Shown piece after piece: positions 36,442 through 47,502 of a stretch of 64,000 bases of DNA (positions are counted from its first letter, which is position 1; each line of letters opens with the position of its first letter). The notes beneath the pieces are model-generated. The model did not search any database, had not been told where the DNA came from, and saw only the letters and a list, made by a program, of their open reading frames with translations. A program made the position numbers and the translations under genes. Source of the stretch: Alphaproteobacteria bacterium (GTDB lineage: Bacteria; Pseudomonadota; Alphaproteobacteria; GCA-2731375); assembly GCA_965225945.1 (NCBI GenBank), contig CBDDBZ010000029.1, positions 64,001 through 128,000 on the forward strand, read 5' to 3'.

Positions 36442-36547
36442 GACGTCGAAGATGGCGCGAAACCCGACATTCGGTGCTTGACGTCACGAATCGGGGGTAG
36501 ACTCCCCGTGGCGCCAAGCTGGCCGTTTCGGCGATTCGTAGCCAAGG
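36442..36547 (+). repeat. Dispersed intergenic repeat, copy A (empty IS110 target)
   Basis: GCGAAACCCGACATTCGG at 36457 ... TTCGGCGATTCGTAGCCAA at 36527-36545. Confidence 0.8.
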
Positions 36548-38685: not shown

Positions 38686-38799
38686 TGGGGGCACTCCTGA
38701 CGTCGATTCGGCGAAACCCGACATTCGGCTGTCAACGTCGGCTTTCGGCGGTAGACTCCTCGTCGGGCCGGGGTGGAAAATTCTGTGACTCTTAGCCAA
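38686..38799 (+). repeat. Dispersed intergenic repeat, copy B
   Basis: GCGAAACCCGACATTCGG at 38711 ... TTCTGTGACTCTTAGCCAA at 38781-38799. Confidence 0.8.
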
Positions 38800-45003: not shown

Positions 45004-45644
45004 TCATCTGTGGACGGCGCCTTCTTGGCAAGGGTTTTCTCGGTGTCGATGCAGGGCCGGTCGGGTGCCCTCATCTGTACGGCCTGTTTGTGCGGCACGT
45101 CTGTTCTGGCCGCCGGCGGTCGCCGGGCGCGAATTCCTATGCGGCCTGCGCGACCGGATCCCGGTAGCGCTCTCCACGTGACATGATCACCCAGGCGATC
45201 CGCGCGATCCGCTTCGCCAGTGCCACAGCGGCCAGCTCGAGCGGCCGATTGGCGACCAGCTTCGCCAACCAAGGCCGTCGCCTGAAGCCGGTCCGGATCC
45301 CCTGACGGATCACCGCCATGGCTCCGGTGACCAGCAGCCACCGAAGGTAGCGGTTGCCCTGTTTGGAGATCGGCCCGAGCCGGTGCTTGCCGCCGGTCGA
45401 GTCCTCCTTCGCCACCAGGCACGGCGGCAAGTGTTCGAAGAACGACATCACCCGGCTGCGGCGCAGCTGCTTGCGAACAACGACCTCGCCGGCCTCGTCG
45501 ACGCCATGAACCTGGAAGACGTTCTTCGCTATATCCAATCCGATCGTGCCAACCTTCATCTGGACGGCTCCTCTTTCAAGTGGTCCGAGACGACTACCAC
45601 TTTGGCACCTAGATGCCGGGTGCGGCGCCGTCCACAGCATCACT
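45004..45644 (-). mobile_element. Internally deleted IS110/IS1111-family element (ends approximate)
   Basis: Perfect 14-bp sub-terminal IRs CTGTGGACGGCGCC (45008-45021 / 45624-45637). Confidence 0.85.
45137..45559 (-). pseudogene. IS110/IS1111 transposase with an in-frame internal deletion
   Basis: TIGLDIAKNVFQVHG...PPCLVA fused directly to KEDSTGGK..LGPISKQGNRYLR. Confidence 0.88.
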
Positions 45645-45683
45645 TCCCACCCGTTGGAAGGTGCTCATATTAGGGTGAGTCTC

Positions 45684-45787
45684 GGGGGTACATCAGATGT
45701 CGATTCGGCGAAACCCGATATTCGGCCACCGATCTCGGGAATTAGGGGAGACGCCCCGTCGGGGAGGGTCGATTCGGTGATTCGTAG
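45684..45787 (+). repeat. Dispersed intergenic repeat, copy C (interrupted by IS110)
   Basis: GCGAAACCCGATATTCGG at 45708 ... TTCGGTGATTCGTAG, continuing as CCAA at 47332. Confidence 0.8.
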
Positions 45788-45895
45788 ACCCTATGTCCGT
45801 TGAGGTTTCGACGCCGGGACCAGGTGTCCGCCTCAGCATGTAGTTTCGAGGGTTGCACGCGTTTGCGTGCCTATCCTCATACATGGGAGACGGAC

Positions 45896-47011
45896 ATGAC
45901 GGACGATATCACCTTTGTTGGCTTGGATGTTTCGAAGGAGACGATTTCGGTCGGGATCGCGCCGGGTGATCCGCGAGAGGCGGTTCATTATTTCGGCACC
46001 ATCGTGTACCGACCGACGGCGCTCTATTCGCTCTGCAAGAAGCTGTCGCGGGACGGCGCGCGTCTTCACTTCTGCTATGAGGCTGGCCCGTTCGGCTATT
46101 CCCTGCATCGCCGGCTTTTGGACTGGGGCCACACCTGCGATGTGGTGGCGCCCTCGCTGATCCCCAAGCGGCCCGGTGACCGGGTCAAGACGGACCGGCG
46201 GGACGCGCTGAGCCTGGCTTCGTTGTTGCGTGCCGGACAGTTGACCGCGGTCTGGGTGCCCGACGCGAGCCACGAGGCGGTTCGCGCGCTGGTGCGCCTG
46301 CGCCACCTGGCGGCGGGCGACGTGCGCCGGGCCAAGCAGCAGATCCTGGGCTTCTGCCTGATGCATGATCGGGTGTATCGGGCGGGTACGACGCATTGGA
46401 CGAAGACCCACCGGAACTGGCTGGTGGATCAGAAGTTCGAGCACGGCGCTCTGGCGCTGACCTATTCGGAATTGCTTGGCCGTCTCGAACGGGCGGAAGA
46501 GATGCTGGCGCGAGCGCGCCTGGAGTTGCGGGAACACCTTGGCGGCTGGGCCTTGTATCCGGTCATGGACGCCCTTCAGGCGTTACGCGGCTTCGATTGG
46601 GAGAATGCCGCCATGGTCGCGGCGGAGATCGGCGACTTCCAGCGCTTCCCCACGGCGGGCCATCTGATGGCCTACGTCGGCTTGGTGCCGTCGGAATATT
46701 CCAGCGGTGATCGACGCAAGCGGGGCAAGATCACCAAGTCGGGCAACGCCATGGTTCGCCGTGTCCTGGTGGAGGCAGCCTGGACCTATCGTCACCCGGC
46801 GCGCCAGTCGAGCCCGATCCGCGCCCGTTCAGCCCATCTGCCGGAGCCGATCCGCGACAAGGCCTGGCAGGCGCAGATACGATTGTGTCGTCGCATGCGC
46901 GATCTGCGCGGGCGCGGCAAACACCAGAACACCGTGCTGACCGCGGTGGCCCGGGAGCTGGCGGGGCACGTCTGGGCCATCGCCCGCATGGTGCCCCCGC
47001 CGATGGCATAA
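45896..47011 (+). CDS. IS110-family DEDD recombinase/transposase
   Basis: VGLDVSKE, CYEAGP, KTDRRDA, AEIGDFQRF, GLVPSEYSSG (catalytic Ser), LVEAAW. Confidence 0.95.
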   Translation: MTDDITFVGLDVSKETISVGIAPGDPREAVHYFGTIVYRPTALYSLCKKLSRDGARLHFCYEAGPFGYSLHRRLLDWGHTCDVVAPSLIPKRPGDRVKTDRRDALSLASLLRAGQLTAVWVPDASHEAVRALVRLRHLAAGDVRRAKQQILGFCLMHDRVYRAGTTHWTKTHRNWLVDQKFEHGALALTYSELLGRLERAEEMLARARLELREHLGGWALYPVMDALQALRGFDWENAAMVAAEIGDFQRFPTAGHLMAYVGLVPSEYSSGDRRKRGKITKSGNAMVRRVLVEAAWTYRHPARQSSPIRARSAHLPEPIRDKAWQAQIRLCRRMRDLRGRGKHQNTVLTAVARELAGHVWAIARMVPPPMA

Positions 47012-47059
47012 ATCGCCGCGCGCCGAGCGGCGAATACCAACACGCCCGCTTGCGTGGGC

Positions 47060-47235
47060 AGCGGCGGTGGCGGCCACTTGGGGAACTCCCGTTCCTTGGC
47101 TATGGGCAGGATTGCATCCGATGCCCGTCTGTAGAGTCAGGACAGCCCCATCGGACATAGGGACATGCGGTAGTCGATCCGCGGATAAGAGCTTGATGGA
47201 CCGTCGATCAAAGCCGTCCCGCCGCTGCCTTCCAA
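47060..47235 (+). ncRNA. Putative bridge/seek RNA of the IS110 element (boundaries approximate)
   Basis: Contains CCTTGGCTA and CTGTAG (target matches) and CGGACATAGGG and ATAAGAG (element-end matches). Confidence 0.65.
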
Positions 47236-47405
47236 AGCGGGCGTCAGATACCCAGCACCCGGTGACGAGCCGGGTGAAAGGCCGCGTTCGTGCTTGACAG
47301 GGAGGACATAAGAGAGGAGAGGACATAAGAGCCAATAGTTTCCGTTTAGAGATCTCTAATGTTATGGATGCCGAGGCCATCGGCAAGACCTCTTCCCGAT
47401 TTTAA

Positions 47406-47502
47406 AAAAAGGTCATTCTATTTTTTCGCCTCCGCTGGCGCTGGCGACACGAGCCACGAAGAGGCCCGCCGCAGCGACCGATAAAGTAGAATGACTCCTT
47501 TT
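47406..47502. repeat. AT-rich REP-like inverted repeat pair
   Basis: AAAAAGGTCATTCTATTTTTTCG ... CGATAAAGTAGAATGACTCCTTTT. Confidence 0.6.

What the first reader, a model, noticed from the sequence alone, without database searches (positions are those of the whole stretch)
45773..47335. IS110 recombinase with a readable bridge/seek RNA aimed at a chromosomal repeat whose empty copies lie in the same window
Seen: deleting 45788-47331 (keeping one AG core) rebuilds TTCGGTGATTCGTAGCCAA. This is 18/19 identical to 36527-36545 and 16/19 to 38781-38799, the ends of two uninterrupted copies of a dispersed repeat. The 3' non-coding region holds four short segments in order: CCTTGGCTA (47094-47102; reverse complement of TAGCCAAGG, 9/9 with copy A and 7 bp with the occupied site), CTGTAG (47129-47134; partial match to the left target half ..GTAG), CGGACATAGGG (47152-47162; exact reverse complement of the element's left end 45789-45799) and ATAAGAG (47185-47191; identical to the right end). 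Established: IS110/IS1111 recombinases use an element-encoded RNA with target- and donor-binding loops. Inference: this is an apparently intact natural RNA-guided recombinase whose guide, donor and repeat target can all be read here. The mechanism class is known; this target specificity may not be.
Basis: partly seen in the sequence, partly recalled or inferred. Interest (0 to 1): 0.8.

Follow-up and report, generated by a model that had tools for sequence, protein, structure and literature searches.

The report
IS1111-type insertion sequence with readable guide RNA
This is an apparently intact RNA-guided insertion sequence of the IS110/IS1111 family whose guide RNA, own ends and repeated chromosomal target can all be read from the sequence; the mechanism is already known, so it is a clear new example, not a new kind of system.

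Summary
The element is 45788-47331: a 371-aa DEDD transposase (Pfam PF01548 + PF02371; NCBIfam "IS110 family RNA-guided transposase"), a 108-nt left and a 320-nt right non-coding end, 7-bp subterminal inverted repeats and an AG core at both junctions.

All junctions in the host genome, six left and four right, lie at ..(G/A)TAG|CCA(A/G).. of a repeat with 48 copies. Thirty-two copies keep the site without this element. Two of them are in the window.

The right end holds a conserved RNA of about 190 nt (about 47051-47239). On 33 relatives, 92.5% of cells pair, against 37-44% in slid controls. Across 23 relatives with different guides, the guides covary with the flanks (0 of 10,000 permutations reach the observed match).

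This matches the published IS1111-type bridge/seek RNA architecture, and repeat targeting is known, so it is a new member of a known kind.

Caveats: the left target guide matches only 4 nt. This copy carries a 14-nt right-end duplication. RNA evidence is only contigs from two RNA libraries. Activity is untested.

The parts
45680..45787 (+). Left part of the occupied copy of the dispersed mosaic repeat; it ends ..GATTCGTAG. Its last two bases (45786-45787, AG) are the core dinucleotide.
   Evidence: Similar to the other repeat copies. The flank ends in GTAG next to the element's first base.
45788..47331 (+). The insertion sequence, 1544 bp (1530 bp in the other full copy).
   Evidence: Ends were defined by comparing genomic copies with uninterrupted repeat copies.
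45788..45895 (+). Short left non-coding end (108 nt). The left subterminal inverted repeat TATGTCC lies at 45792-45798, 4 nt from the tip.
   Evidence: Read. The left-end motif AC..(C/T)ATGT.. is shared with relatives.
45896..47011 (+). DEDD transposase/recombinase gene, 371 aa plus stop.
   Evidence: Pfam PF01548 (E 3.6e-12) and PF02371 (E 1.2e-21). NCBIfam NF033542, 235.7 bits against a cut-off of 140. PDB ISCro4 and IS621 transposases at E about 1e-13, with the D, E, D..D and SG motif positions aligned.
47051..47239 (+). Predicted bridge/seek RNA. Outer stem 47051-47068 with 47223-47239; second stem 47072-47074 with 47216-47218.
   Evidence: RNAalifold and pair counts on 33 relatives. 14 of the 16 outer-stem pairs show compensatory changes. 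A 26-nt inverted repeat, 47042-47067 / 47219-47244, is reported (I1).
47080..47149 (+). Target-binding arm. Stem GGGG 47080-83 with CCCC 47146-49. Inner stem GGGCA 47104-08 with TGCCC 47122-26. Hairpin 47109-12 with 47116-19.
   Evidence: WIN coordinates checked for complementarity.
47094..47102 (+). Right target guide CCTTGGCTA, on the 5' strand of the target loop. It is the reverse complement of TAG+CCAAGG.
   Evidence: The homologous segment matches the right flank in relatives: positions +1 to +3 in 23 of 23, +4 in 19 of 23.
47129..47134 (+). Left target guide CTGTAG, on the 3' strand of the target loop. It has the same sense as the left flank ..GTAG.
   Evidence: The homologous segment matches the left flank in relatives: position -4 in 21 of 23, -5 in 15 of 23.
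47150..47208 (+). Donor-binding arm. Stem ATCG 47150-53 with CGAT 47205-08. Invariant hairpin GCGG 47167-70 with CCGC 47179-82.
   Evidence: In the L010 group the stem reads GGACG with CGTCC in the same register (read).
47152..47164 (+). Right donor guide CGGACATAGGG(AC), complementary to left-end positions 2-12 (45789-45799). One A-A mismatch faces left-end base 1, and C47164 faces the core G.
   Evidence: The three bases before the conserved (A/U)C-AU-GCGG covary with left-end positions 2-4 in four groups (read).
47185..47191 (+). Left donor guide ATAAGAG, identical to the last 7 nt of the element including the AG core.
   Evidence: In relatives this segment changes together with the right end: CATATCAG, CATCAGAG, GATAAGAG.
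47294..47331 (+). Right terminus. TTGACA (-35-like) at 47294-47299. The 13-nt terminal motif GAGGACATAAGAG occurs twice (47302-47314, 47319-47331) because of a 14-nt insertion private to this copy. Right subterminal inverted repeat GGACATA at 47321-47327. Core AG at 47330-47331.
   Evidence: (D4), (table 4: 14 nt left out at 47302 in DNA runs X1 and X6).
47332..47365 (+). Right part of the occupied repeat copy, CCAATAGTTTCCGTTTAGAGATCTCTAATG...
   Evidence: An uninterrupted paralogue with the same right flank lies at G000:C31:136507-136561.
36491..36547 (+). Unoccupied repeat copy A. Its site TTCGTAG|CCAAGG matches the right target guide 9 of 9 and the left guide over GTAG.
38745..38799 (+). 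Unoccupied repeat copy B. Its site is CTCTTAG|CCAACA.

Best explanation
An IS1111-type member of the IS110 family lies at 45788-47331. Its DEDD recombinase (45896-47011) is aimed by an RNA of about 190 nt encoded in the long right end (about 47051-47239).

The RNA folds into a long outer stem carrying two arms, each with an internal loop.
- Target loop: the 5' strand (CCUUGGCUA) pairs with the top strand of core plus right flank (TAG CCAAGG). The 3' strand (CUGUAG) has the sense of left flank plus core, so it pairs with the bottom strand.
- Donor loop: the 5' strand (CGGACAUAGGG-A-C) pairs with the element's left end. The 3' strand (AUAAGAG) has the sense of the right end plus core.

Recombination at the AG core between the joined ends of an excised circle and the site ..GTAG|CCAA.. 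places the element in one module of a dispersed 48-copy repeat.

Shown here: element anatomy, site specificity within the genome, conservation and covariation of the RNA structure, and covariation of guides with flanks across the family.

Inferred from the published family mechanism: RNA expression and processing, circle formation, strand exchange at AG, and present-day activity of this copy.
For: Protein: PF01548 plus PF02371. NF033542 'IS110 family RNA-guided transposase', 235.7 bits against a cut-off of 140. It aligns to the ISCro4 and IS621 transposases with the D, E, D..D and SG motifs in place. The frame is open in both full copies.

Site specificity: BLAST of the element finds 9 pieces in the genome.
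- 6 of 6 left junctions follow ..TAG (3 GTAG, 3 ATAG, two of the ATAG ones being duplicates of each other).
- 4 of 4 right junctions precede CCA (3 CCAA, 1 CCAG).
- All lie within one repeat family.

The repeat: 48 copies by iterated nhmmer. 6 are occupied by this element, 32 keep an ..AG|CC.. site without it, and 10 have a diverged or missing site.

RNA: the right-end non-coding region is conserved at nucleotide level in 55 of 73 related loci, although the proteins are at most 56% identical. For the comparative structure on 33 sequences:
- 41 pairs, 92.5% of cells paired, against 36.8-44.4% when partners are slid.
- 24 pairs have changes on both sides.
- Covariation score 0.351, against at most 0.102 slid and 0.141 shuffled (0 of 500 shuffles reach it).

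Guides, over 23 elements with distinct right target guides:
- 109 of 138 right-flank positions match the guide's reverse complement. Permuted pairings give a mean of 43.4 and a maximum of 77 (0 of 10,000 reach 109).
- Left-flank positions -4 and -5 match in 36 of 46. Permuted mean 15.2, maximum 29 (0 of 10,000).
- This element's matches (4 right, 4 left) are typical of the family.

The donor guide on the 3' strand changes together with the right end in all four lineages.

The order of guides, top-strand match 5' of bottom-strand match, is the one reported for the IS1111 family (PMC11187229, section 9 read). The short left end, long right end, subterminal repeats and RNA in the right end match the IS1111 description in PMC11208160 (passages read).

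RNA-library contigs cover 47044-47228 (X15) and 47069-47251 (X16) with no differences.
Against: The left target guide matches the occupied site over GTAG only. Three of the six occupied sites have ATAG, a mismatch at -4.

The minimum-free-energy fold of this sequence alone pairs the right target guide with 47072-47083 (mean probability unpaired 0.23). It is 3.3 kcal/mol better than the fold forced to the comparative helices (-81.6 against -78.3).

The z-score of the whole non-coding region is only -2.45.

The consensus scan finds no sigma-70-type promoter anywhere in 45700-47420. Rfam 15 gives no hit at gathering thresholds.

The RNA evidence is contigs only, from one study, in libraries that may contain DNA. 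It shows no ends, strand or level.

This copy has a 14-nt duplication between the TTGACA and the terminus, which could affect excision or a junction promoter.

The 11-nt donor match is much longer than in relatives (about 3-5 nt next to the core), so part of it may reflect the inverted-repeat relationship rather than guide function.
Confidence: 0.87

Rival explanations
1. The element belongs to the family, but this particular copy is inactive. The 14-nt right-end duplication displaces the -35-like TTGACA and creates two candidate right termini, so the copy no longer excises or no longer makes a junction promoter.
For: The duplication is absent from the three other right ends in the genome. It is also absent from contigs of two DNA runs (table 4). 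Five of the seven element copies or fragments in the genome are truncated or interrupted.
Against: The last 16 nt, the gene and the whole RNA are unchanged relative to the other full copy (99.8% identity over the element's first 1527 positions, i.e. up to the first copy of the duplicated motif). Locus L053 in an unrelated genome has a similar 25-nt right-end duplication, so such duplications may be tolerated. No canonical junction promoter is evident even without the duplication (my reading).
Confidence: 0.2
2. The four matches are by-products of the terminal inverted repeats and chance. The protein alone recognises the target, and the conserved right-end structure has another role such as mRNA stability.
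For: GGACATA is shared by the right end and the internal segment. The left target guide match is only 4-6 nt. The single-sequence fold buries one segment.
Against: Guide-flank covariation across 23 elements with different targets: 0 of 10,000 permutations reach the observed match on either side. The variable blocks of an otherwise conserved RNA coincide with the segments. Published experiments on family members show that the RNA determines the target (PMC11187229, abstract and sections read; PMC11208160, passages read).
Confidence: 0.03
3. The boundaries are wrong. The 'repeat' is part of a longer mobile unit, and the flanks travel with the element.
For: All copies share similar flanks for tens of bases.
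Against: 32 repeat copies carry the uninterrupted site without the element, and flanks differ between copies beyond the short site. An uninterrupted paralogue (G000:C31:136507) has the same right flank as the window copy. Element identity is 99.6-100% between copies, whereas repeat copies are about 70-87% alike.
Confidence: 0.02

Closest known systems
IS1111-family elements with a seekRNA (ISEc11, ISPa11, ISKpn4, ISPst6; Siddiquee et al. 2024, PMC11187229)
   Same: DEDD transposase. Long non-coding region downstream of the gene. Subterminal inverted repeats. An RNA from that region carries a top-strand match 5' of a bottom-strand match to the target. The GL-P----SG motif is present (GLVPSEYSSG).
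   Different: The protein is 371 aa, against the 330-350 aa quoted for the family. No sequence comparison with those elements could be made here. The subterminal repeat is at the short end of the range (7 bp). The target is different. Here a donor loop is also readable.
IS621 / IS110-group bridge RNA (Durrant et al. 2024, PMC11208160; Hiraizumi et al. 2024, PMC11208158; PDB 8wt6)
   Same: Two internal loops, each with a left and a right guide around a 2-nt core. The recombinase has RuvC-like DEDD and Tnp (PF02371) domains.
   Different: The IS621 RNA lies in the left end and its guide order is reversed. Protein similarity is remote (E 1.5e-12, two stretches). The core here is AG.
Repeat-targeting IS110-family elements such as ISPpu9 of Pseudomonas putida, with its downstream Ssr9 RNA (PMC12288879; Tobes and Pareja 2006, as cited in PMC11208160)
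   Same: Multiple copies inserted at one position of a dispersed extragenic repeat. A small RNA gene lies downstream of the transposase.
   Different: Different host lineage and a different repeat. The repeat here shows no convincing palindromic consensus fold. Only the search listing and abstract of PMC12288879 were seen.

Membership tests
IS110 family (DEDD RNA-guided transposases) | Transposase with an N-terminal DEDD/RuvC-like domain and a C-terminal PF02371 domain | tested here: met
   PF01548 E 3.6e-12 and PF02371 E 1.2e-21. NF033542 235.7 bits against a cut-off of 140.
IS110 family (DEDD RNA-guided transposases) | Catalytic D, E, D, D and the conserved Ser-Gly of the C-terminal domain | tested here: met
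   The alignment to the ISCro4 transposase keeps GLDVSK, CYEAG, KTDRRDA and PSEYSSG opposite the corresponding motifs. That these are the catalytic residues is recalled from the literature, not tested.
IS110 family (DEDD RNA-guided transposases) | Site-specific insertion with no duplication other than a shared 2-nt core | tested here: met
   AG occurs at both junctions. One AG is left when the element is removed, as in uninterrupted copies.
IS1111 subgroup | Long non-coding end downstream of the gene, short upstream end | tested here: met
   108 nt upstream against 320 nt downstream. Criterion from PMC11187229 section 6 and PMC11208160 passages.
IS1111 subgroup | Subterminal inverted repeats of 7-17 bp | tested here: met
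   TATGTCC at 45792-45798 and GGACATA at 47321-47327, each 4 nt from the tip (read). 7 bp is the lower bound of the range.
IS1111 subgroup | Transposase clusters with IS1111-type proteins in a phylogeny | not tested
   No ISfinder reference sequences were available. Only the GL-P----SG motif was checked.
Bridge/seek RNA systems | Conserved structured RNA in the long non-coding end, with internal loops | tested here: met
Bridge/seek RNA systems | Loop segments complementary to both strands of the target and covarying with it | tested here: met
   23 distinct elements; 0 of 10,000 permutations reach the observed match.
Bridge/seek RNA systems | Loop segments matching the element's own ends (donor) | tested here: met
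   The 3' strand equals the right end in all four lineages. For the 5' strand, 11 of 11 match here but only 3-5 nt match in relatives, read by eye.
Bridge/seek RNA systems | The RNA is expressed, binds the recombinase and is needed for transposition | tested here: inconclusive
   Only RNA-library contigs over 47044-47251. Binding and requirement are not testable with these tools.

The most novel reading that the evidence does not exclude
The mosaic repeat may be a shared landing pad on which guide RNAs diversify.

Two different IS1111-type elements of this genome carry readable guides for homologous positions of two related modules of the same repeat. This element targets ..GATTCGTAG|CCAAG..GACATT. 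A second, roughly 1.47-kb element ('group B') targets ..GATTCGGCGAAA|CCGACATT, with AATGTCGG and GCGAAA in its own right end.

An IS91-like element and a group II intron also sit immediately after ..AGCCA(A/T).

This element's donor guide has 11-15 nt of complementarity to its left end, against 3-5 nt in relatives. That could mark a variant mode of donor recognition.
Probability: 0.25. Interest if true: 0.5.

Novelty: new member of a known kind. Interest (0 to 1): 0.33.

Why it matters
The element adds a divergent lineage to the catalogue of RNA-guided recombinases: it is at most 56% identical in protein to anything in 185,579 species-representative genomes. Recombinase, RNA scaffold, all four guides, donor ends, and both occupied and empty targets can be read from one genome. 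That makes it a convenient natural test case for guide length rules in IS1111-type systems, which here are about 4-5 nt on each side of an AG core. It does not change the picture of how these elements work. It also illustrates how an IS-rich genome channels several kinds of mobile elements into one repeat.

Tried and rejected
Rfam 15 at gathering thresholds over the whole window gave 0 hits, so no curated family covers this RNA or the repeat.

The sigma-70 promoter scan of 45700-47420 gave 0 sites. It found two terminator-like sites on the minus strand, which is no more than in shuffles.

A longest-exact-match search for the left end using the reverse complement of the donor-loop 5' strand worked only for the window element (11 nt). 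In relatives it gave 4-8-nt matches at scattered places. I therefore located the left ends from the shared motif instead.

RNAalifold on the 33 near-full-length rows of the 48 repeat copies found only a 3-bp stem (-2.9 kcal/mol) on the plus strand and nothing on the minus strand. The repeat is therefore not shown to be a structured RNA or a REP-like palindrome, and its nature is left open.

RNAalifold's own consensus pairs CGGU (columns 40-43) with ACCG (170-173), and CCUC (52-55) with GAGG (69-72). I preferred GAGG with the downstream CCUC, and the donor-arm stem 118-123 with 172-177. The reasons are the nested covarying hairpin and 7 compensatory changes at 118:177. One compensatory change in L067 supports the RNAalifold stem, so an alternative or pseudoknotted pairing is not excluded.

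The distant DNA search of plasmids gave 202 records at 60-80% identity over at most 39% of the element, all in the coding part. No named close relative turned up.

No covariance model was built. No structure or complex prediction, homologue search in the large protein collections, or atlas search was run, because none was needed for the question.

Rows dropped before the covariation count:
- 15 of 81 sequences lacked the hairpin anchor.
- 14 of the remaining 66 failed my target-loop pattern (L001-L009, L030, L047, L057, L069, L071).
- Of the 52 parsed rows, 12 failed the left-end pattern.
- Four more had no right-end candidate or too short a flank (L028, L061, L065, L052).
- That left 36 rows, and identical guide-and-flank combinations were counted once (none had to be merged).
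- One row per distinct right guide gave 23.

The L001-L009 group, the closest relatives by protein, was inspected by eye only. Its right flanks begin CC(C/T)G and its guide reads ..CGGG without the core complement. It fits more loosely than the counted groups.

Supplementary files of the two 2024 papers could not be opened. These are the target logos and the ISfinder-wide bridge RNA table, and they may already list this element or this target.
Full report
**What is there**

The stretch 45788-47331 is a 1544-bp insertion sequence.
- It holds one long open frame. From the ATG at 45896, behind GGGAGA, it gives a 371-aa protein.
- The protein matches Pfam DEDD_Tnp_IS110 (residues 8-151, E 3.6e-12) and Transposase_20 (226-299, E 1.2e-21).
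- It matches NCBIfam NF033542 'IS110 family RNA-guided transposase' at 235.7 bits, against a cut-off of 140.
- Among solved structures it aligns to the ISCro4 (9t56) and IS621 (8wt6) transposases at E about 1e-13. The motifs GLDVSK, CYEAG, KTDRRDA and PSEYSSG stand opposite their counterparts.
- The upstream non-coding end is 108 nt and the downstream one 320 nt.
- TATGTCC (45792-45798) and GGACATA (47321-47327) form a 7-bp inverted repeat, 4 nt inside each tip.
- AG stands on both sides: 45786-87 in the flank and 47330-31 at the element's end.

**The observation**

- The rebuilt empty site occurs at 36527-36545 (1 mismatch) and 38781-38799 (3 mismatches). Expected 0.02 per shuffled window.
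- TAGCCAAGG occurs only at 36539-36547 and, in reverse complement, at 47094-47102.
- CGGACATAGGG occurs only at 47152-47162 and, in reverse complement, at the left end 45789-45799. The complementarity extends to 15 of 17 nt (I4).
- ATAAGAG at 47185-47191 equals the element's last 7 nt.
- CTGTAG at 47129-47134 shares GTAG with the flank.

**Site specificity in the host genome**

The window is G000:C29:64001-128000 of a 6.27-Mb, 39-contig assembly. BLAST finds nine pieces of the element:
- the window copy;
- one other full copy (C37:331461-332990, 99.8% identical);
- one copy interrupted by another insertion;
- several truncated copies.

All six left junctions follow ..TAG: GTAG three times and ATAG three times. 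Two of the ATAG cases share flanks and are duplicates. All four right junctions precede CCA: CCAA three times and CCAG once.

The flanks belong to one repeat family. Iterated nhmmer finds 48 copies of a 56-nt core, with consensus TCGGGGGTAgAcTCCCCGTCGGGCCGgGGTGGCCGATTCGGTsATTsnTAGCCAA. Of these, 6 are occupied by this element, 32 keep an ..AG|CC.. site without it, and 10 have lost or diverged from the site.

Window copy A (36491-36547) has TTCGTAG|CCAAGG. That is a perfect 9-of-9 match to the right target guide and matches the left guide over GTAG. An uninterrupted copy at C31:136507 has the same right flank (CCAATAGTTTCCGTT) as the occupied window copy.

**The RNA**

The search for related loci returned 80 loci from species-representative genomes. 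The best is only 56% identical in protein. They come from alpha- and betaproteobacterial MAGs, Paraburkholderia, Caballeronia, Cupriavidus, Polaromonas and others.

Despite this distance, the non-coding region downstream of the gene matches the window's at nucleotide level in 55 of 73 loci with enough downstream sequence.

An alignment of 33 non-redundant sequences (A1) shows a conserved scaffold broken by short variable blocks.

RNAalifold gives a long outer stem with abundant compensatory change. I then tested a structure with seven helices:
- 41 pairs, with 92.5% of 1345 cells paired, against 36.8-44.4% when the 3' partners are slid by 1-3 columns.
- 24 pairs have changes on both sides.
- Covariation score 0.351, against at most 0.102 slid and 0.141 shuffled (0 of 500 shuffles).

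In window coordinates:

| Feature | Position |
|---|---|
| Outer stem | 47051-47068 with 47223-47239 |
| Second stem | 47072-74 with 47216-18 |
| Target arm, outer stem | 47080-83 with 47146-49 |
| Target arm, inner stem | 47104-08 with 47122-26 |
| Target arm, hairpin | 47109-12 with 47116-19 |
| Donor arm, stem | 47150-53 with 47205-08 |
| Donor arm, invariant hairpin | 47167-70 with 47179-82 |

CCTTGGCTA lies on the 5' strand and CTGTAG on the 3' strand of the target arm's internal loop. CGGACATAGGG lies on the 5' strand of the donor arm's internal loop, with its first two bases in the stem. ATAAGAG lies on the 3' strand of that loop.

The minimum-free-energy fold of the window sequence alone pairs CCTTGGC with 47072-47083 (probability unpaired 0.23). 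It is 3.3 kcal/mol better than a fold forced to the comparative helices. RNAalifold also prefers two alternative short stems, one of which has a single compensatory change. The junction between the arms is therefore not settled.

**Guides covary with flanks**

For each relative I extracted the segments homologous to the two target guides. I located the right end from the donor guide and the left end from the shared end motif, and read the flanks.

After the drop-outs listed under Tried and rejected, 36 rows remained, and 23 elements had distinct right guides. For these 23:

| Measure | Observed | Permuted mean | Permuted maximum | Permutations reaching observed |
|---|---|---|---|---|
| First six right-flank bases matching the guide's reverse complement | 109 of 138 | 43.4 | 77 | 0 of 10,000 |
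| Left-flank positions -4 and -5 matching the left guide | 36 of 46 | 15.2 | 29 | 0 of 10,000 |

| Right-flank position | Matches (of 23) | Left-flank position | Matches (of 23) |
|---|---|---|---|
| +1 to +3 | 23 each | -1 | 23 |
| +4 | 19 | -2 | 22 |
| +5 | 12 | -3 | 23 |
| +6 | 9 | -4 | 21 |
| +7 | 3 | -5 | 15 |
| | | -6 | 7 |

The family thus reads about 4-5 nt on each side of the AG core. The window element, with 4 on each side, is typical.

The donor guide on the 3' strand changes with the right end:

| Lineage | Donor guide | Right end |
|---|---|---|
| This element and the L001-L009 group | (G)ATAAGAG | ..ACATAAGAG |
| L010 group | CATCAGAG | ..GACATCAGAG |
| Betaproteobacterial group | CATATCAG | ..ACATATCAG |

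The three bases of the 5' strand that precede the conserved (A/U)C-AU-GCGG follow left-end positions 2-4: GGG with CCC here, CGG with CCG, UGG with CCA, and UUG with CAT (two of three). These were read by eye. The 11-nt match of the window element is unusually long for the family.

**Expression**

Near-identical sequence is held by 20 public runs from 8 studies, among them sponge metagenomes. Two metatranscriptomic libraries of one study yield contigs at 47044-47228 and 47069-47251, and over parts of the gene.

Contigs show neither ends, strand nor level, and DNA may be present in such libraries. This is a hint only. No sigma-70-type promoter is found by the consensus scan, so the RNA may be processed from the transposase transcript. 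That last point is inference.

**Peculiarity of this copy**

Between the -35-like TTGACA (47294-99) and the terminus there are 14 extra nt, so GAGGACATAAGAG occurs twice (D4). The three other right ends in the genome lack them, as do contigs of two DNA runs. An unrelated relative (L053) has a 25-nt right-end duplication. Whether this impairs the copy is unknown.

**Comparison with what is known**

Siddiquee et al. 2024 (PMC11187229; outline and sections 6, 9 and 13 read) describe IS1111-family elements. These have a downstream non-coding region, subterminal repeats and a seekRNA whose top-strand match lies 5' of the bottom-strand match.

Durrant et al. 2024 (PMC11208160; passages around 'IS1111' read) describe short left ends, long right ends, 7-17-bp subterminal repeats and a bridge RNA in the right end. 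They cite repeat targeting by such elements.

ISPpu9 of Pseudomonas putida sits in REP sequences with a downstream small RNA (PMC12288879; search listing and abstract only).

The window element meets every family feature that could be tested. Phylogenetic placement and biochemical features were not tested. It is a new member of a known kind. I could not check whether ISfinder or the papers' supplements already list it.

**Verdict**

- Confidence that this is an IS1111-type RNA-guided element whose guides specify ..GTAG|CCAA.. of the repeat: about 0.87.
- That this very copy is active: perhaps 0.6.
- Interest is modest (0.33). It is a clean, fully readable natural example from a divergent lineage, in a genome where several mobile elements share one landing pad, but it reveals no new mechanism.

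Noticed in passing
G000:C34:289594-291065 and about 10 other places, e.g. G000:C29:43154-44622, just upstream of the window: A second IS110-family element ('group B') of about 1.47 kb, with a 350-aa transposase and a 306-nt right end. In 6 of the 10 copies listed it is inserted at ..GAGC/GGC GAAA|CCGACATT CGG.. of the upstream module of the same mosaic repeat. Its right end holds AATGTCGG (the reverse complement of CCGACATT) about 40 nt before GCGAAA, which is the same guide order as in the window element. The two target sites look like homologous positions of two related repeat modules.
   Followed up: partly
G000:C38:115391-117990 (locus L081) and 21 other copies: A 2.6-kb element encodes a phage-integrase-family protein and an IS91-type Y2 transposase (PF04986, PF14319). 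Its left end lies directly after ..AGCCA(A/T/C)A, ..GGTCAA(A/C/T) or similar. Six of the 22 copies follow ..TAGCCA(A/T/C)A, four of them within nhmmer-detected repeat copies, a few bases from the site used by the IS1111-type element. A related 2.6-kb element (locus L082) does the same.
   Followed up: partly
G000:C9:30132-32000 (locus L083); also C38:209781, C36:320110, C39:98772: A group II intron (reverse transcriptase plus maturase, PF00078 and PF08388, on the opposite strand) abuts ..TAGCCA(T/A) of the repeat in 3 of its 4 copies.
   Followed up: partly
window 45137-45643 (-): A 168-aa open frame with the N-terminal start and a partial C-terminal PF02371 domain (E 2.3e-08) of another IS110-family transposase. 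It looks like an internally deleted remnant and sits directly upstream of the occupied repeat copy.
   Followed up: no
window 36491-36545, 38745-38799, 45680-45787; 48 copies genome-wide: The repeat core contains a hexamer that varies as TAnAnT (TAGACT, TATAGT, TACAGT, TATAAT) behind GGGGG. Some copies have a TTGAC-like hexamer upstream, so the repeat might carry a promoter. No consensus RNA fold was found. Its nature is unexplained.
   Followed up: partly
locus L053, about 86-135 nt after the donor guide: An unrelated relative has a 25-nt tandem duplication of its right end (ACCTTGACGGGTCAATACATATCAG, twice). This resembles the 14-nt right-end duplication of the window copy, so right-end duplication may be a recurrent by-product of this kind of recombination.
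   Followed up: no
locus L056 (the relative with the highest protein identity, 56%): This locus lacks the conserved RNA downstream of the gene. Instead, the sequence after the stop codon contains the reverse complement of the element's own left flank, which suggests an inversion or deletion at that copy.
   Followed up: no
relatives L019-L079 (betaproteobacterial group) and L001-L008: Joining right end to left end in these relatives would place TTGACA 17 nt before CATCAT, a junction promoter as described for the family. In the window element's lineage the spacing is 18 nt or more to the tip and no good -10 follows.
   Followed up: no
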